Shown in pieces: positions 5,174 to 36,959 of a DNA stretch of 45,584 nucleotides. The stretch lies in contig JAZSNU010000019.1 of the NCBI GenBank assembly GCA_045536565.1, forward strand, positions 1 to 45,584, in the 5' to 3' direction. Origin of the DNA: Clostridia bacterium. GTDB taxonomy: Bacteria > Bacillota > Clostridia > TANB77 > CAG-465. How positions within the stretch are numbered: the first letter of the stretch is position 1; every line of letters starts with the position of its first letter. The translations under genes were made by a program, and so were the position numbers. The notes below the pieces were generated by a model. That model did not search any database. It was given only the letters and a program-made list of their open reading frames with translations, and was not told where the DNA came from.

Positions 5174-6496
5174 TTATGTTATAATAAATTTTGTATTATC
5201 ATATACTATTTCATCTAATAATTCACAACTTGAATATTTATCTATTCCTCCATTAGATAATTTATATAGTATATGTTCAAAAATATTATTAACAACATTT
5301 GAAAGTTCTCTTGCACCCGTTCCCATCTTTATAGTTTTTTCTGCTATTAAATTAAGTAAATTATCACTATATCTTAATTCAATACCATTTTTTGATAAAA
5401 CATTTTCATACTTTTTAAGTGCAGATAGTTTGGAAGTTTTAAGTATTCCTACAAGTATTTCTGCTGTTATATCATTTAGTTCAACAATAGTATCTATTCT
5501 ACCTATAAACTCTTGTGTCATACCATAGTTTGAAATATCTTGCTTAGTATATTTCCCTATATCAGAATATTTCTTCTCATTAGTCACAGATGAAAAACCG
5601 ATTTTTTTACCATTTGAATTCATCTTTTTTATCTCATCCATTTTAGAGAATGCACCCATAAAAAAGACTTTTAGGTTAGATGTATCAAAATCAACTTCCT
5701 TACATGTAACCGGATTTCTAATTTTAAGTTTTGTACCTTCGACTATTTTAAGGAGACTATTTAACACCCCTTGTCCGCTTATGTCTCTTCCTACAATTTC
5801 TCCTGCTGTTGCTTTTTTGTCTATTTCGTCAATTATTAGCATACCTCGGCTTGCTAAATCAATGTCTCCATTTGCATTTTCTATCAGGTTATATATCATT
5901 GTTTCTACATCTTCACCGACATACCCTGCTTCTGTATACGAATTTGCATCCTCAATAGTATATGGAATACCTAAAAGTTTTGCTATTTGAATCATTGTTT
6001 CTGTTTTACCGGTACCTGTTTTGCCAATAACAAGAACATTAGACTTTAAATCGTCAGATAAATTACTTCTGTATATAGATACTAAGATTTTACGAACTGC
6101 TTCATCTTGACCTATAATATATTTTTTTACTTCCTCTTCCAACTCCTCCAAGCTAGGCATTTTAAATGCTTTTTGTTCCTTTTCTTCGCCGGCTTCTTTA
6201 TTATCGTTTTTAGATTTTGAAAGTATATCTTGTTTATACATTTCGTATATAGGATTATAATTATTCTTTCTTTTTTCAAGAGCAGTATGTGCATTTTCAT
6301 AATCATAATCTGATTTTTTCATTATCATGTCTTCTTCGGTATCTGCTAATTCTTCGATACAAAAGCAACATAAATCTAGTAGCTTATCTGGCAAAATAAA
6401 AGGATCTTCCATGTTTTGAATACCAACTGGTGCTTCGATACCGCATCTTTGACATTTTGCGGTAACTATGTTGTCTTTATAAATATTATTACCCAT
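5174..6496 (-). CDS. Divergent orphan ClpX-like AAA+ ATPase
   Basis: YIIGQDEA, Walker A GKTGTGKT, pore loop GYVG, Walker B IIDEIDK, RDISGQGV, IGF loop, EFIGRI, GAREL; N-terminal CQRC...CCFC. Confidence 0.85.
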   Translation of the reverse strand: MGNNIYKDNIVTAKCQRCGIEAPVGIQNMEDPFILPDKLLDLCCFCIEELADTEEDMIMKKSDYDYENAHTALEKRKNNYNPIYEMYKQDILSKSKNDNKEAGEEKEQKAFKMPSLEELEEEVKKYIIGQDEAVRKILVSIYRSNLSDDLKSNVLVIGKTGTGKTETMIQIAKLLGIPYTIEDANSYTEAGYVGEDVETMIYNLIENANGDIDLASRGMLIIDEIDKKATAGEIVGRDISGQGVLNSLLKIVEGTKLKIRNPVTCKEVDFDTSNLKVFFMGAFSKMDEIKKMNSNGKKIGFSSVTNEKKYSDIGKYTKQDISNYGMTQEFIGRIDTIVELNDITAEILVGILKTSKLSALKKYENVLSKNGIELRYSDNLLNLIAEKTIKMGTGARELSNVVNNIFEHILYKLSNGGIDKYSSCELLDEIVYDNTKFIIT

Positions 6497-32855: not shown

Positions 32856-33060
32856 TTGTCTTCTCCTTATAATTTAACATATAAATTATACCACTAAACA
32901 CTAAGGAAATGCAACAAAAATGCGTGTATATAGTGTATTTTTTAAACTATTTACTTTTATGTATACTTATGATATAATATGCAGGAATTTATTAACAAAA
33001 AGTTTTAATTTTAATAAAGAAAAAATAATATTTATAATTAATTTAAAGGAGGGATTTTTT

Positions 33061-33405
33061 ATGTTAAAAAAAGAAATAATGAAGAATGCAGATATGTATA
33101 ACAAATTACCCAATCTCACATCAGAAGAACAAAAAAATAAAGTGTCAATTATATCACAAAAAAATCGGGAAAATATTTATATTACTTTATTAACCTTATC
33201 GTTAATACTTGTAATTCTTTTTCTTATTTTTTTGTTTATACCAAATTGTAATTTAGTAAATTGTATCTTGGCAGCTTTATTATCTATCTCTTTTTTCATG
33301 CTTTTTCTTACTGGAGATAAATCAAAAAAAGGACTATCTTCAAAGTGGTCTAATCTTGGGCTCAGCATTCTTTGGTTATTTAATTTTATTACTCGACTAT
33401 TTTAA
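33061..33405 (+). CDS. Small 3-TM membrane protein, paralog 1 of 3 (114 aa)
   Basis: SD AAGGAGG before ATG 33061; MLKKEIMKNADMYNK...ILWLFNFITRLF. Confidence 0.8.
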   Translation: MLKKEIMKNADMYNKLPNLTSEEQKNKVSIISQKNRENIYITLLTLSLILVILFLIFLFIPNCNLVNCILAALLSISFFMLFLTGDKSKKGLSSKWSNLGLSILWLFNFITRLF

Positions 33406-33471: not shown

Positions 33472-33816
33472 ATGTTGAAAAAAGAAATAATGGAAAATGC
33501 AGATATTTACAACAAAGAACATTATCTTCTTGACGAAGCAAGAAAGAGAAATACAAAACACGAATCCAAAAAGAAAACAAAGAAAATTTATCCAGTAGTA
33601 GCAAGTTTAATACTAATAGCCTTAGTTATAGCACTGATTTCCTTATTTGCTACAACAGCTAATTTAATAGGTTGTATTATTTGTGGCATACTAGTTATAG
33701 TGTATCTTTTGCTTTTTCTTATAGAAAGCAAAGTTAGAACAACTTCAAGCTCAAAATGGATTTATTTAAGTGTTACTATCCTTTGGCTATTTAATCTTAT
33801 TCTTCGATTATTTTAA
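33472..33816 (+). CDS. Small 3-TM membrane protein, paralog 2 of 3 (114 aa)
   Basis: MLKKEIMENADIYNK...ILWLFNLILRLF. Confidence 0.8.
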   Translation: MLKKEIMENADIYNKEHYLLDEARKRNTKHESKKKTKKIYPVVASLILIALVIALISLFATTANLIGCIICGILVIVYLLLFLIESKVRTTSSSKWIYLSVTILWLFNLILRLF

Positions 33817-33833: not shown

Positions 33834-34178
33834 ATGTTAAAAAAAGAAATAATGGAAAATGCAGATATTTACAATAAAGTTCATTTTGTTCTTCATGAAG
33901 CAGCAAAAGAAAACATGCCAAAGTCATTCTGGCAAAAACTTAAACAAAATTATTTTATTCTACTTATCTTAGCACCAATATTATTAACCATAGCTCTAAT
34001 TGTTATGTTTGCCACTAGAAGTAAATTACCAAATCTTATTATTTGCGGATTATTAGTTGTTTTATATTTTATGCTTTTTCTTACCACAGATAAATGTAAA
34101 ACAGGATTATCTTCAAGATGGTCTAATCTTGGACTATGTATTCTTTGGCTATTTAATTTTATTATTAGACTTTTCTAA
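33834..34178 (+). CDS. Small 3-TM membrane protein, paralog 3 of 3 (114 aa)
   Basis: MLKKEIMENADIYNK...ILWLFNFIIRLF. Confidence 0.8.
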   Translation: MLKKEIMENADIYNKVHFVLHEAAKENMPKSFWQKLKQNYFILLILAPILLTIALIVMFATRSKLPNLIICGLLVVLYFMLFLTTDKCKTGLSSRWSNLGLCILWLFNFIIRLF

Positions 34179-34186
34179 GAAAAGAA

Positions 34187-34217
34187 ACTGCTTAAACTAA
34201 AATTTAGTTTAAGCAGT
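34187..34217. terminator. Bidirectional terminator
   Basis: ACTGCTTAAACTAA/TTAGTTTAAGCAGT with A- and T-runs on both sides. Confidence 0.8.
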
Positions 34218-34225
34218 CTTTTTGT

Positions 34226-36232
34226 TTAGCTTTCAATAAATTGTTCAAGTTCGCTTGAAGTTACAATCTTGTTCTTTATGAGATATTTTGCCATCTTATC
34301 AATCTCGTTCCAATGCTTATCTATAAATTCTTCTGTTTTGCTATATACGCGCTTAATAAGTTGGTTAGCCTTCTCATCAATTTTTGCAGCAAGTTTTTCG
34401 TTAAATAAATCTTCATCCAAAAGATAAATATTTTTGTATTCTTCATCGTCCATACCATATTCAGCAATAACCTGTTTAGCATATTCTTTTGCTTTTTTTA
34501 GATCAGACCTAGCACCAGAGGTAAGTTGTTTGGAAACCCTTTCTTGTGCAACTCTTCCAGCAAGCAAAAACATAATGTATGCGTCTACAAATTCTTTATC
34601 AGCAGAAACAAAACCATCTTTTTCTTCAAGTATGTTTACACCTAAGAAACCATCACCAGGTATAATTGAAATAGCCTTTACATCGTATGCTTCTTTTTCC
34701 TTTGTAAGTCTATTTACAATATAATGACCTATTTCATGGTACGCAATATCTCTTATATCTTTTTTAGAAATATTTTCATGCATTTTGAAACATTCATCAT
34801 ATACCGCATTTATATATGCTTTTGTAACAGTCTTCTTGTTTTTCATTTTTGTAATTGCCATACTTCTGTCGCAAAGGTCTAATGTCTTATCCGGATTACA
34901 ACTTTCAAAATTAAAGCAGCTAGAACAAAGTATAATATAGTCGAGTAATTTGCTTGGCATTTTTACTCCATGATACTCTTCCATCTTTTTAATTTTAGCC
35001 TTTATCATGTCTTTTATCTCTGAATTTTTGGGTTCCTTTATTTTTATAACTTCAAATCTCCTTTTAAAAGCACCATCCCTAGATAAAATACTGTTGTATT
35101 CATTTACTGTCGTAGCACCTACAAAAACAACATCATCTCTTGAAAGGACAGGTTTTAACGAACCACTAAGATCAACCGTTCCCTCTGATGTTCCACCAGC
35201 ACCAAGCATCTGATGCATTTCATCTACAAAAAGAATAACTTTTGGTGTAGTTTCAAGAAACTTTTTAAGAATTGCAACTTTTGTTTCAAATTCACCACGA
35301 TATTTAGTACCTGCAACCATTAAGTTAACATCAAGTGATAAAACCGTATATCCTATAAATTCCTTAGGACAGGTCTCATTTACAATCTCCTGCGTTACAG
35401 CCTCAATAACAGCAGTTTTACCAACTCCTGGCTCACCAACTAGCACAGAATTTCTCTTGGTTTTCTTTGAAGAAACATTGAATACTTTAAATATCTCTTT
35501 ATCGCGGCCAAGAATAGTAATTTCTTCGCCTTTTTCATACTTCTTGTTAAGTACCTCTACACATGTTTCAAGAATTGGTGGAAGTATAATTTCCCTTTGT
35601 GTATTTTCAGAACTTTCACACACATTTGCATTTATCCTTATTGCATTTATAAAATCATCTACATCTATTTCTAGTTGTGTGAGAAGATTTTTCATAAATT
35701 TATATGCGCTTGTGTCTTTGTTTTCCAAAATACAATAGATTATATAATCTAGTTCAATATAGTCCTTACCCATTGTTTTAGAAATACTTAATGCCTTATC
35801 AAATGCTGCTTCAAGTTTGTCGGAATATTGTGGCTCTAATATTTCTTCTCTTTCAAATTCCAACATTCCATAAAAAACATCCATAACTTTATTGGCAAAC
35901 TTTTCATCTTCCGTTTCTTCCTCACATGGTATGAATTCAACATCACCTTCATTTGGCTTTACTTCGTCTTTGAATAATTTTTCAGCAATATCTTTTCCAA
36001 ATATTTCACCAAATACTTCTTTGTTACTTAATATATAACTAATATTTGGACTTACTGTCATATCCATATCCGCAAAACATTTTGAAATTACTGACTCTGT
36101 GTCGTTAATTGCTGCGAATAAAAAGTATGCACTTCTTACCTTCTCGTCATCAAACCGCCAAGCAATATCCGTCGCAATTTCAAATGCCTTTCTCACATTA
36201 CCTGTAACTTTTGCATTTCTCCATTCATACAT
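34226..36232 (-). CDS. Chimeric AAA+ protease: Clp N-domain + ClpA/B/C-type D1 ATPase + FtsH-type M41 peptidase
   Basis: ILGRDKEI, LVGEPGVGKTA, AGTKYRGEFE, LFVDEMH, GATTVNEY, AFKRRF, PDKTLDLCD; then AYHEIGH, ISIIP..FLG, LLAGRVAQE, TSGARSDL, IAEYGM. Confidence 0.88.
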   Translation of the reverse strand: MYEWRNAKVTGNVRKAFEIATDIAWRFDDEKVRSAYFLFAAINDTESVISKCFADMDMTVSPNISYILSNKEVFGEIFGKDIAEKLFKDEVKPNEGDVEFIPCEEETEDEKFANKVMDVFYGMLEFEREEILEPQYSDKLEAAFDKALSISKTMGKDYIELDYIIYCILENKDTSAYKFMKNLLTQLEIDVDDFINAIRINANVCESSENTQREIILPPILETCVEVLNKKYEKGEEITILGRDKEIFKVFNVSSKKTKRNSVLVGEPGVGKTAVIEAVTQEIVNETCPKEFIGYTVLSLDVNLMVAGTKYRGEFETKVAILKKFLETTPKVILFVDEMHQMLGAGGTSEGTVDLSGSLKPVLSRDDVVFVGATTVNEYNSILSRDGAFKRRFEVIKIKEPKNSEIKDMIKAKIKKMEEYHGVKMPSKLLDYIILCSSCFNFESCNPDKTLDLCDRSMAITKMKNKKTVTKAYINAVYDECFKMHENISKKDIRDIAYHEIGHYIVNRLTKEKEAYDVKAISIIPGDGFLGVNILEEKDGFVSADKEFVDAYIMFLLAGRVAQERVSKQLTSGARSDLKKAKEYAKQVIAEYGMDDEEYKNIYLLDEDLFNEKLAAKIDEKANQLIKRVYSKTEEFIDKHWNEIDKMAKYLIKNKIVTSSELEQFIES

Positions 36233-36295
36233 AATTTTATGCCTCCTTATTCATTATTTAATGTTTAATTTTTGCAAACATATTTTATGTCACGA

Positions 36296-36324
36296 ATTAT
36301 ATAATTTTATATTGGAAATGTCAA
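36296..36324 (-). promoter_or_regulatory. Consensus sigma-A promoter of the chimeric protease
   Basis: Perfect TTGACA-17-TATAAT; SD AAGGAGG before the ATG. Confidence 0.8.
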
Positions 36325-36425: not shown

Positions 36426-36959
36426 TATAATATATGGTGGGTGTTATGTATTTAAATTGTGTACTTCGAAATTTTTTATGGTGTTTTCCTTGCAGACTGC
36501 CCTATGGCAGAGGACATTATGTTACAGGATGTGATTTAGTCTTGCTATCTAATGTTATTTCTATCGAACAATGTTTAACTAATTTTTCCTGTAATCTATT
36601 AGGTAATACGCCTAAAAAATCACCCTATCTATTAAATAATCATAGAAAGGAGAAATAAATAATGTCACAAGGTTATAATAATTGGGGCTGTTGCAACTAT
36701 CAAAATGACTATAAAGAAGAGAAAAAAGAAGAATGTTGCTGCTGCAAATGTTGCCATCCAAAAAAAGAAGAACCTAAAAAACAATGTGCTACTATAAAAG
36801 TATGCATTGAAGAAGAAAAGAAAGAAAAAAAAGAAGACAAAAAACAAGATGGCTGTTATTAATTCCAATTAATAAATACCATAAAACATTAACTATGTGC
36901 AAGTGCATTTTTGTATAAACTGCATTTGCACTACATACTCTTCCCACCGTTATATTATA
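36426..36959 (+). other. Segment bracketed by nested long-range inverted repeats (candidate 5'-3' paired structured transcript)
   Basis: 36426-36450 pairs with 36932-36959; 36474-36486 pairs with 36874-36886; several local hairpins. Confidence 0.6.
36662..36862 (+). CDS. Small Cys/Lys/Glu-rich protein (66 aa), putative spore-surface or metal-binding protein
   Basis: SD AAGGAG; ECCCCKCCH and KEEKKE repeats. Confidence 0.7.
   Translation: MSQGYNNWGCCNYQNDYKEEKKEECCCCKCCHPKKEEPKKQCATIKVCIEEEKKEKKEDKKQDGCY

What the first reader, a model, noticed from the sequence alone, without database searches (positions are those of the whole stretch)
34226..36324. Soluble Clp-FtsH chimera: ClpC-type N-domain and D1 ATPase fused to an M41 zinc protease
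Seen: two Clp-repeat-like helical segments separated by an acidic insert, then a complete ClpA/B/C first AAA module (GEPGVGKT near residue 266, KYRG pore loop, DE Walker B, RRF arginine fingers, PDK lid). In place of the M-domain and D2 is an FtsH-type protease domain with HEIGH (34724-34738), LLAGRVAQE and GARSD, retaining the third-ligand Asp. No TM segment is apparent. Known: Clp ATPases normally use a separate ClpP through D2, and M41 domains are normally fused to classical-clade AAA domains in membrane-bound FtsH. I know of no characterised protease with this architecture. A perfect promoter, strong SD and intact motifs argue that it is functional. Inference: a new class of self-contained cytoplasmic ATP-dependent protease.
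Basis: partly seen in the sequence, partly recalled or inferred. Interest (0 to 1): 0.85.

Follow-up and report, generated by a model that had tools for sequence, protein, structure and literature searches.

The report
Soluble Clp-type ATPase fused to FtsH-type protease
This intact gene from a small-genome gut bacterium joins the front half of a Clp unfolding motor to the zinc protease domain of FtsH in one soluble protein; the family is conserved, I found no paper describing it, and it probably works as a self-contained ATP-driven protease.

Summary
Window 34229-36232 (-) encodes a 668-aa protein with four parts: a two-repeat Clp N-domain split by an acidic insert, a ClpA/B/C-type D1 AAA+ module with its AAA_lid_9 lid, no M-domain or D2, and a C-terminal Peptidase_M41 domain (Pfam E 5e-28). 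No hydrophobic stretch fit for a membrane helix was found. It is not an assembly artefact: 119 of 120 listed 90%-identity clusters and 95 of 149 fetched 50%-identity representatives carry both halves, and independent metagenome contigs bridge the joint. Across 92 diverse members the zinc site (H499, H503, D577) is invariant and E500, Walker A/B and the arginine fingers are nearly so. Trees place the family's D1 and M41 domains each in one clade, which fits a single old fusion. The family was found only in the window's own order (46 of 201 genomes), not in 400 other genomes of the phylum. It has no conserved neighbour and no plasmid, phage or defence signal. Eight literature searches found no description. 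The best reading is a hexameric, ClpP-independent, cytoplasmic ATP-dependent zinc protease; this is inferred, not shown. Clp D1 belongs to the same "classic" AAA clade as FtsH's ATPase, so I rate it a new variant of a known kind.

The parts
36296..36324 (-). Sigma-70-type promoter, TTGACA-17 nt-TATAAT
   Evidence: 12 of 12 consensus matches. The region gave 13 promoter-like sites against 19.0 +/- 4.0 in shuffles, so only the perfect match is notable; it is a consensus match, not shown to be used.
36242..36248 (-). Shine-Dalgarno AAGGAGG, 9 nt before the ATG at 36232
   Evidence: Read from the sequence.
34229..36232 (-). Coding sequence of the 668-aa Clp-N / D1 / M41 protein (stop codon 34226-34228)
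36008..36211 (-). Clp N-domain repeat 1 (residues about 8-75)
   Evidence: The family HMM of residues 1-85 hits both Clp_N repeats of the own ClpC-like protein (E 5.5e-4) and the protein's own repeat 2. tblastn matches to ordinary Clp genes start at query residue 8 (e.g. L014, L026, L030).
35834..35977 (-). Acidic insert between the two repeats (residues 86-133; 35% D+E)
   Evidence: In the 19 members of A1 it is 26-71 aa long with 21-40% D+E.
35618..35833 (-). Clp N-domain repeat 2 (residues about 134-205)
   Evidence: Family HMM against the own ClpC-like protein, E 2.6e-6. Aligns with ClpC/MecB residues from 79 on. Pfam Clp_N E 0.09.
35024..35533 (-). D1 AAA+ large subdomain (residues 234-403): Walker A 266-273, pore loop 308-313, Walker B 334-338, sensor-1 region 372-375, Arg fingers 391-392
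   Evidence: 39.2% identical to the own ClpC-like D1.
34772..35023 (-). D1 small subdomain / lid (AAA_lid_9; residues 404-487, with NPDK 446-449); no M-domain insert
   Evidence: Pfam AAA_lid_9 residues 406-481. Alignments to ClpC and ClpB stop at query 462-473, where I recall their M-domain begins. ClpA, which has no M-domain, aligns on to residue 495.
34229..34771 (-). Peptidase_M41 zinc protease domain (residues 488-668): HEIGH 499-503 (34724-34738), LLAGRVAQE 556-564, GARSD 573-577
   Evidence: Pfam E 5.4e-28. PDB FtsH protease domains E 2e-18, with HEIGH on HEAGH and GARSD on GAAND. 29.2% identical to the own FtsH.
34185..34219 (.). Bidirectional intrinsic-terminator-like hairpin shared with the convergent gene
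   Evidence: 16-pair stem on the - strand, 14 pairs on the + strand, each followed by a T run.

Best explanation
The gene encodes a soluble, single-chain AAA+ metalloprotease. Inferred mechanism: six subunits form a Clp-D1-type ATPase ring stacked on an FtsH-type M41 protease ring. The ClpC-like N-domains, each interrupted by a variable acidic insert, sit on top and select substrates or adaptors. The pore-loop tyrosine (Y311 in GTKYRG) grips the polypeptide. ATP hydrolysis (Walker B E338, with Arg fingers R391/R392 acting on the neighbouring subunit) threads the substrate into the chamber. There a zinc ion held by H499, H503 and D577, with E500 as the catalytic base, cuts it. With no D2 module the protein has no place for a ClpP-docking loop, so it should act without ClpP; with no TM helix it should act in the cytoplasm. 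Shown: domain make-up, intact gene and expression signals, conservation of both catalytic sites, one clade for each half, and restricted, patchy distribution. Inferred: hexamer, ATP-dependent proteolysis and substrates. It is an accessory, lineage-restricted addition to a genome that already has FtsH, ClpXP, a ClpC operon, a second two-ring Clp and a Lon-related protein.
For: Domains. The D1 family profile hits the own Clp proteins at E 1.6e-68 and 7.4e-61 but the own FtsH AAA only at E 0.13. M41 aligns with solved FtsH protease domains. Conservation in 92 representatives of 23-71% identity: K272 92/92, G266 92/92, D337 91/92, E338 86/92, R391 87/92, R392 85/92, pore aromatic 79/92 (72 Y + 7 F), H499 92/92, E500 91/92, H503 92/92, D577 92/92. 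Recurrence: 119 of 120 listed 90% clusters and 95 of 149 fetched 50% representatives have both halves, 94 of the 95 with HExxH. The joint is bridged by independent contigs: run X3 record 17 lies on 34005-35170 and run X2 record 11 on 34592-34824. It is also present in 46 of 201 genomes of the order. One clade for each half: D1 SH-aLRT 99; M41 SH-aLRT 100. No TM by hydropathy. Perfect promoter, SD and terminator. [quoted passage not shown] D1 and the FtsH AAA are both in the classic clade (PMC7226402, passage).
Against: The human M41 protease YME1L does not hexamerise or work once its TM span is removed, unless an artificial hexamerising coiled coil is added (PMC5095350, passages), so a soluble M41 enzyme is not guaranteed to assemble. 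Some members deviate: Walker B Glu is replaced in 6 of 92 and the pore aromatic in 13 of 92. The gene is dispensable: it is absent from 155 of 201 genomes of the order, including 2 of 5 other genomes of the genus, and copies with in-frame stops exist (G048 four stops, G018 one TGA). The 'no TM' call rests on Kyte-Doolittle hydropathy alone. The role of D577 as third zinc ligand rests on alignment to the FtsH GAAND motif plus my recollection of the FtsH crystal structures.
Confidence: 0.7

Rival explanations
1. It is a narrow, adaptor-gated regulatory protease rather than a general one. The ClpC-like N-domain borrows ClpC's partners (MecA, or McsB-made phospho-arginine tags) and routes a few specific proteins to the M41 chamber instead of to ClpP.
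For: The N-domain is homologous to that of the own ClpC-like protein. The genome has McsB directly upstream of the ClpC-like gene, and also MecA. N-domains and the acidic insert vary strongly between members, while the catalytic cores do not.
Against: The N-domain is only about 25% identical to ClpC's over 87 aligned residues. The GTEH-like motif of ClpC repeat 1 reads RSAY here. Five of 92 representatives have fewer than 75 residues before Walker A, so no N-domain at all. No conserved neighbour was found in 16 loci. No CtsR-like box (up to 3 mismatches) lies upstream, though two sit upstream of the mcsB/clpC operon. The ClpC residues that bind pArg or MecA are recalled, not tested here.
Confidence: 0.15
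2. It is a chaperone, unfoldase or scaffold whose protease domain is vestigial, like the plant FtsHi pseudo-proteases, or an ATPase-dead protease.
For: FtsHi proteins show that M41-bearing AAA proteins can lose proteolysis (PMC9020784 passage; PMC8197885, abstract in the listing only).
Against: FtsHi1, 2, 4 and 5 lack HEXXH. Here the zinc triad is the most conserved feature of the family (92/92, 92/92, 92/92; E500 91/92), and the ATPase motifs are kept as well.
Confidence: 0.05
3. It does not act alone but mixes into rings with membrane FtsH (through M41) or with ClpC (through D1).
For: Its halves are homologous to the genome's own FtsH and ClpC-like proteins.
Against: Identity to those partners is low (29% and 39%). 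Each half forms a separate, well-supported clade apart from FtsH and ordinary Clp. The D1 and FtsH AAA modules are too unlike to be recognised by each other's profile (E 0.13).
Confidence: 0.05
4. It is part of a mobile element or an anti-phage defence system.
For: Its distribution among close relatives is patchy. There is a weak match to the defence ATPase IetA (E 1.5e-6, over the AAA core only).
Against: No full-length match was found in 2196 matching plasmid records or 189 matching phage records (0 with at least 80% coverage in each). Within the genus it lies between ruvB and murA, and no integrase or defence neighbour is conserved. The IetA match is the generic AAA fold.
Confidence: 0.04
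5. It is an assembly or gene-calling artefact joining a Clp fragment to an FtsH fragment.
For: None found.
Against:: the same fusion occurs in many independent assemblies and genomes. Contigs from other runs bridge the joint. The frame is open with no stop, and the joint region is conserved.
Confidence: 0.01

Closest known systems
FtsH (MEROPS family M41; membrane-anchored AAA+ zinc protease)
   Same: C-terminal M41 domain with HExxH and the GAxxD aspartate. One classic-clade AAA module directly in front of it, and collinear with the own FtsH over residues 249-668 (24% identity; M41 part 29%). Single polypeptide, with a presumed stacked hexamer.
   Different: No TM helices or extracytoplasmic domain. 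The ATPase is Clp D1 with AAA_lid_9, not the FtsH-type AAA. A Clp N-domain takes the place of the membrane anchor. It scores 101 bits against the 600-bit cut-off of the FtsH equivalog model. Its M41 forms a clade apart from 30 canonical FtsH and 8 short FtsH paralogues.
ClpC / ClpA / ClpE-type Hsp100 unfoldases that work with ClpP
   Same: Two-repeat N-domain and a complete D1 with KYRG pore loop, Walker A/B and double arginine. 39% identical to the own ClpC-like D1.
   Different: No M-domain and no D2 (AAA_2, ClpB_D2-small), hence no place for a ClpP-docking loop. A protease is fused on instead. It scores 228 bits against the 993-bit cut-off of the ClpA model. An acidic insert splits the N-domain.
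Lon (LonA): soluble single-chain AAA+ protease
   Same: The functional analogue: N-domain, one AAA+ module and a protease domain in one soluble chain, needing no partner peptidase.
   Different: Lon has an HCLR-clade AAA and a Ser-Lys S16 protease, unrelated to D1 and M41. A strong Lon_C match (E <= 1e-40) was found in only one of the five families of this order (f3 9/9; f1 0/29, f2 0/29, f4 0/4, f5 0/29). That family is one of the two in which the fusion was not found (f3 0/9, f4 0/4). This is a single contrast among kin, so a weak hint only.
Engineered hexYME1L (M41 protease made soluble with an artificial hexameric coiled coil)
   Same: A soluble M41 AAA+ protease whose membrane anchor is replaced by another N-terminal element (PMC5095350, abstract and passages).
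   Different: That construct is man-made and keeps the FtsH-type AAA. Here nature replaced both the anchor and the ATPase.
Giant 3xAAA-M41 proteins of the same bacterial order (seen here, not known to me from print)
   Same: Also without a predicted TM segment (max hydropathy 1.32 and 1.54), with M41 at the C-terminus behind non-FtsH AAA modules.
   Different: 1984 and 2114 aa: about 1000 residues of unknown N-terminal sequence, then three AAA modules with AAA_lid_6. Their M41 is only 28-30% identical to this protein's and 37-38% identical to FtsH's, so this is a separate fusion.

Membership tests
Peptidase family M41 (domain level) | Match to the Peptidase_M41 profile above the curated cut-off | tested here: met
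   98.6 bits against a cut-off of 29.9, profile positions 3-190 of 191.
Peptidase family M41 (domain level) | HExxH zinc site plus a downstream Asp ligand | tested here: met
   HEIGH 499-503 and D577 align with HEAGH and the Asp of GAAND in T. maritima FtsH. They are invariant in 92/92 (E500 in 91/92). That this Asp is the third ligand is recalled, not from a call.
FtsH proper | N-terminal transmembrane anchor | tested here: not met
   Maximum hydropathy 1.08 over 19 residues. FtsH is described as membrane-anchored (PMC9020784 abstract).
FtsH proper | FtsH-type AAA module / whole-protein equivalog score | tested here: not met
   TIGR01241 scores 101.2 bits against a cut-off of 600, matching residues 452-661 only. 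The family D1 profile against the own FtsH AAA gives E 0.13.
Clp/Hsp100 class I (ClpA/B/C/E) | Double Clp_N repeat N-domain | tested here: met
   Weak by Pfam (E 0.09), but both repeat profiles hit both ClpC repeats. The family profile aligns from position 5-7 with ordinary Clp genes.
Clp/Hsp100 class I (ClpA/B/C/E) | D1 AAA+ module with AAA_lid_9 | tested here: met
   The family D1 modules form a clade (SH-aLRT 99) among Clp D1 modules when rooted on the own FtsH AAA.
Clp/Hsp100 class I (ClpA/B/C/E) | Second AAA+ module D2 (AAA_2 + ClpB_D2-small), which carries the ClpP-docking loop in ClpA/C/E | tested here: not met
   There is no AAA_2 or D2-small match in the protein. The genome's AAA_2 matches lie elsewhere. 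ClpA and ClpB models score 228 and 226 bits against cut-offs of 993 and 1232.
Lon | S16 Lon_C protease domain | tested here: not met
   The genome's only Lon_C matches are on contigs C4 and C17; there are none in this protein.
Self-compartmentalised AAA+ protease (functional class) | Hexameric ring with the protease sites in an enclosed chamber; ATP-dependent degradation | not testable with these tools
   This needs biochemistry or cryo-EM.

The most novel reading that the evidence does not exclude
M41 is a portable protease cassette that one order of small-genome gut bacteria has bolted onto at least three different AAA ring types: FtsH-type, Clp D1, and a triple AAA module with AAA_lid_6 lids. 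The Clp-N/D1/M41 form would be a further type of bacterial AAA+ protease: a ClpP-independent, cytoplasmic 'soluble FtsH' that reads substrates through a ClpC-style N-domain. It may take over soluble quality-control proteolysis in lineages where no canonical LonA was found.
Probability: 0.3. Interest if true: 0.75.

Novelty: new variant of a known kind. Interest (0 to 1): 0.62.

Why it matters
[quoted passage not shown] In those lists M41 proteolysis is tied to membranes. A natural, conserved, soluble M41 enzyme driven by a Clp D1 ring would show three things. First, the D1 ring alone can feed a protease, although D1 is often treated as the auxiliary ring of Hsp100 proteins (my own knowledge, not from a call). 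Second, the M41 disk can pair with a foreign classic-clade motor. Third, ClpC-type N-domains can be wired to a ClpP-independent degradation route. It would also give structural biologists an M41 AAA+ protease with no predicted membrane anchor, without the engineered hexamerisation tag that YME1L needed. Its restriction to one order of reduced-genome bacteria, relatives of which were seen in gut and faeces metagenome runs, makes it a lineage marker and a case study of domain shuffling in proteostasis.

Tried and rejected
There is therefore no model, no fold search and no check of the D1/M41 geometry or the N-domain fold.

ESM Atlas: it holds neither the protein nor the homologue P0113.

I cannot say what NCBI or UniProt call these proteins, nor whether InterPro lists the architecture.

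Genome contigs pattern scan: swamped by ordinary Clp genes. Of the 80 loci kept, only L011 is a full-length member (its record title reads 'uncultured Clostridia bacterium'). It was of little use for taxonomy.

Sequencing runs: no RNA holder was listed, so nothing can be said on expression. The DNA holders held at most 0.20 of the sampled words; parts of the gene without contig cover in single runs mean nothing.

Regulon check: there is no CtsR-like box (up to 3 mismatches) upstream of the gene. The genome's only CIRCE match (up to 3 mismatches) is on contig C11, not in this window. Both consensus motifs were recalled.

Conserved partner: none in 16 neighbourhoods. The three small membrane-protein genes next to the gene are not kept even within the genus.

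Defence, phage, plasmid: nothing specific.

Rejected idea: that the M41 half was recently captured from the host's FtsH or from the ~500-aa FtsH paralogue. The family M41 is a separate clade (SH-aLRT 100) and only 27-29% identical to both. The branching order of the three groups is unresolved (support 27).

Not searched: split forms (stand-alone M41 or N-D1 genes) and longer fused forms were not searched with the 'shorter' or 'longer' option. I do not claim there are none; P0121 (923 aa, two AAA modules) is one longer form seen.

Supplementary files of papers were not opened.
Full report
**The observation**

The ORF at window 34226-36232 (- strand) is open for 668 codons from an ATG.

- Pfam gives Peptidase_M41 at residues 488-664 (E 5.4e-28, 98.6 bits against a cut-off of 29.9), AAA at 263-395, AAA_lid_9 at 406-481 (E 1.6e-7), and only a sub-threshold Clp_N match (E 0.09).
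- NCBIfam aligns residues 115-491 with ClpA (2e-67) and 86-465 with ClpB (8e-67). Both score far below their equivalog cut-offs. It aligns residues 452-661 with the FtsH family model (6e-29, 101 bits against 600).
- Against solved structures, the N-terminal two thirds match Hsp104, ClpC, ClpB, ClpE and ClpA D1 (best E 2e-54).
- Residues 488-666 match FtsH protease domains (E 6e-19). HEIGH aligns on HEAGH, LLAGRVAQE on LLGGRAAEE, and GARSD on GAAND of T. maritima FtsH.

**N-domain, solubility and expression signals**

- Profiles built from the family's residues 1-85 and 125-215 each found the two Clp_N repeats of this genome's ClpC-like protein as the best non-self hit among 2328 ORFs (E 5.5e-4 and 2.6e-6). 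The repeat-1 profile also recognised the protein's own repeat 2.
- The 48 residues between the repeats are 35% Asp+Glu. The insert varies from 26 to 71 residues in 19 relatives.
- No 19-residue window is hydrophobic enough for a membrane helix (maximum 1.08).
- A 12-of-12 sigma-70 consensus promoter, an AAGGAGG ribosome-binding site and a bidirectional terminator frame the gene.

**Not an artefact; a family**

- The 120 best 90%-identity clusters all come from other assemblies. 119 of them carry both a D1 and an M41 match by my family HMMs; the exception is a 401-aa fragment.
- In an exhaustive search of 1.84 billion 50%-identity representatives, 95 of the 149 fetched best hits carry both halves. 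94 of those have HExxH.
- Contigs of other public runs, about 94% identical, lie across the D1/M41 joint at about 34771: X3 record 17 on 34005-35170 and X2 record 11 on 34592-34824.

**Selection on both activities**

In an alignment of 92 representatives sharing 23-71% identity with the query, the counts are:

| Site | Kept |
|---|---|
| Zinc ligands H499, H503, D577 | 92/92 each |
| Catalytic E500 | 91/92 |
| Walker A K272 | 92/92 |
| Walker B D337 / E338 | 91/92 and 86/92 |
| Arg fingers R391 / R392 | 87/92 and 85/92 |
| Pore-loop aromatic | 79/92 |

The protease site is the most conserved feature of the family. That argues against a pseudo-protease of the FtsHi type, which lacks HEXXH (PMC9020784 passage).

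**Origin of the halves**

- The D1 part is 39% identical to the own ClpC-like D1. The family's D1 profile scores E 1.6e-68 and 7.4e-61 on the two Clp proteins, but E 0.13 on the own FtsH AAA. The M41 part is 29% identical to the own FtsH.
- D1 tree (142 rows, IQ-TREE quick search, SH-aLRT only, rooted on the own FtsH AAA). For speed I used every second one of the 92 family members (47 rows) and every second named Clp locus (40 rows), plus all 52 non-M41 representatives.
  - All 47 family rows fall in one clade (support 99), together with 7 short proteins of 230-498 aa that are probably truncated members.
  - The sister clade is a set of six proteins with a single D1 and no M41.
- M41 tree (70 rows: 32 family, 30 canonical FtsH from 30 genomes of the phylum, 8 short FtsH paralogues). 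The family is one clade (support 100) and the paralogues another (99). The order of the three groups is unresolved (27).
- Both trees have long branches and no bootstraps. Together with the shared collinear architecture, they fit one old fusion and give no sign of a recent capture from the host's FtsH.

**Distribution and context**

- With the protein as query, 46 of 201 genomes of the window's order have a full-length match at E <= 1e-80. By family the counts are f1 36/77, f2 6/77, f5 3/33, f3 0/9 and f4 0/4; within the genus, 3 of 5 other genomes.
- In samples of the class and the phylum, no genome outside the order matched. The class sample gave 6 of 399, all in family f1, with 2 genomes not scored. 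The phylum sample gave 1 of 401, the window's own genome.
- A profile search with the 92-member alignment over the phylum sample gave the same picture. Among the 150 listed matches, only the window's own reached the M41 part (747 bits). Every other listed match ended at profile position 473 or earlier, the best at 324 bits (426 weaker matches were not listed).
- Carrier genomes are 1.1-2.0 Mb. Two copies carry in-frame stops (G048 four, G018 one) and one genome has two adjacent copies.
- Neighbourhoods of 16 carriers share genes only among close kin. In the genus the gene lies between ruvB and murA, and no partner gene is conserved.
- There is no full-length match on plasmids (0 of 2196 matching records) or phages (0 of 189). 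There is only a generic AAA match to a defence model.

**Genomic background**

The 1.13-Mb genome (completeness given as 100%) also encodes:

- a canonical FtsH (833 bits, over the cut-off);
- ClpP, with ClpX beside it;
- a ClpC-like gene preceded by McsB and two CtsR-like boxes;
- MecA;
- a second two-ring Clp;
- a ClpX-like paralogue;
- a Lon-related 798-aa protein that stays below the LonB cut-off.

The fusion is therefore an extra, not a replacement for FtsH or ClpCP. A strong Lon_C match (E <= 1e-40) was found in 9 of 101 genomes of the order, all in family f3 (9/9; the other four families 0/91). f3 is one of the two families without the fusion. This is one contrast among relatives, and many genomes have neither gene, so it is only a hint that the fusion may fill a Lon-like role.

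**Mechanism and comparison**

- A review places ClpA/B/C D1 in the same classic AAA clade as FtsH, and D2 in the HCLR clade (PMC7226402, passage). The protein is collinear with FtsH from the Walker A region to the C-terminus.
- Bacterial FtsH cytosolic fragments hexamerise, and the M41 domains form a rigid six-fold disk beneath the ATPase ring (PMC9020784, passages). YME1L, by contrast, needs its anchor or an artificial coiled coil (PMC5095350).
- The most economical reading is an FtsH-like stacked hexamer in which the motor has been exchanged for Clp D1 and the membrane anchor for a Clp N-domain.
- This gives a cytoplasmic, ClpP-independent ATP-dependent zinc protease. Its substrate choice would be set by the divergent N-domain and its acidic insert.
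- All of this beyond the domain make-up and conservation is inference.

**Novelty**

Eight full-text searches found nothing on this architecture. The terms combined Peptidase_M41 or M41, Clp_N, ClpC, Hsp100, AAA_lid_9, soluble FtsH, fusion and domain architecture. Only open-access papers and bioRxiv were searched. Database names for the homologues could not be retrieved. I rate it a new variant of a known kind: known modules and a known logic (AAA ring fused to a protease), in a combination and cellular location not described in what I could search.

**Family variants**

- Five of 92 members lack the N-domain.
- One member (P0121, 923 aa) has two AAA modules.
- Two of 95 have an N-terminal hydrophobic stretch and may be membrane-tethered.
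- The same order also holds giant proteins of 1984 and 2114 aa with no hydrophobic stretch fit for a TM helix. They have three AAA modules (AAA_lid_6) and a C-terminal M41 that is a separate fusion.
- Many genomes of the phylum hold a roughly 500-aa single-TM FtsH paralogue.

M41 thus appears to be more modular in these bacteria than the textbook view suggests.

Noticed in passing
L170:886-6840 (-) and L171:675-7019 (+); further M41 matches in open frames of 980-2117 aa in G020, G005, G040, G028, G043, G036: Giant proteins (1984 and 2114 aa) with no hydrophobic stretch fit for a TM helix, from the same order. They have about 1000 residues of unassigned N-terminal sequence, three tandem AAA modules with AAA_lid_6, and a C-terminal Peptidase_M41 with HExxH. 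Their M41 is 37-38% identical to FtsH's and 28-30% to the chimera's, so this is a second, independent non-FtsH M41 architecture.
   Followed up: partly
L162-L169 (e.g. L162:514-2016 +): A roughly 500-aa FtsH paralogue with one N-terminal TM segment, Walker A near residue 105-115 and HExxH near 332-342. A weaker second M41 match (about 80-120 bits) in an open frame of about 500 aa occurs in many of the 36 other phylum genomes sampled. It was not seen in the window's own genome.
   Followed up: partly
window 32920-33405, 33472-33816, 33834-34178 (+): Three tandem paralogous genes for small hydrophobic proteins (about 114 aa, all starting MLKKEIM.NAD.YNK), convergent with the protease gene. They have no Pfam family. 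Two unrelated small ORFs occupy this spot in one genus relative and none in another.
   Followed up: partly
window 36662-36862 (+): A 66-aa ORF rich in Cys, Lys and Glu (runs of CC and CCCC) between the protease promoter and murA. It was not examined further.
   Followed up: no
window 5174-6496 (-): A ClpX-like paralogue (440 aa) scoring 250 bits against the 359-bit ClpX cut-off, in addition to the ClpX next to ClpP on contig C18.
   Followed up: partly
order-level genome sample: A strong Lon_C match (E <= 1e-40) was found in only one of the order's five families (f3 9/9; the others 0/91). The window's genome has only a Lon-related 798-aa protein below the LonB cut-off.
   Followed up: partly
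proteins P0249, P0250, P0257, P0215, P0235, P0241: The sister clade of the family's D1 consists of proteins with a single Clp-D1 module (AAA + AAA_lid_9) at the C-terminus, a long unassigned N-terminal region and no M41. They may resemble the pre-fusion state, or be truncated gene calls.
   Followed up: partly
proteins P0121, P0139, P0171; genomes G087, G048, G018: Family variants: a 923-aa form with two AAA modules before M41; two members with an N-terminal hydrophobic segment; one genome with two adjacent copies; and copies with in-frame stops.
   Followed up: partly
protein P0216 (694 aa): A Clp-D1-like protein whose last 150 residues match the C-terminus of CRISPR-associated Csd1 (E 2e-53). 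This is possibly a gene-call or assembly chimera.
   Followed up: no
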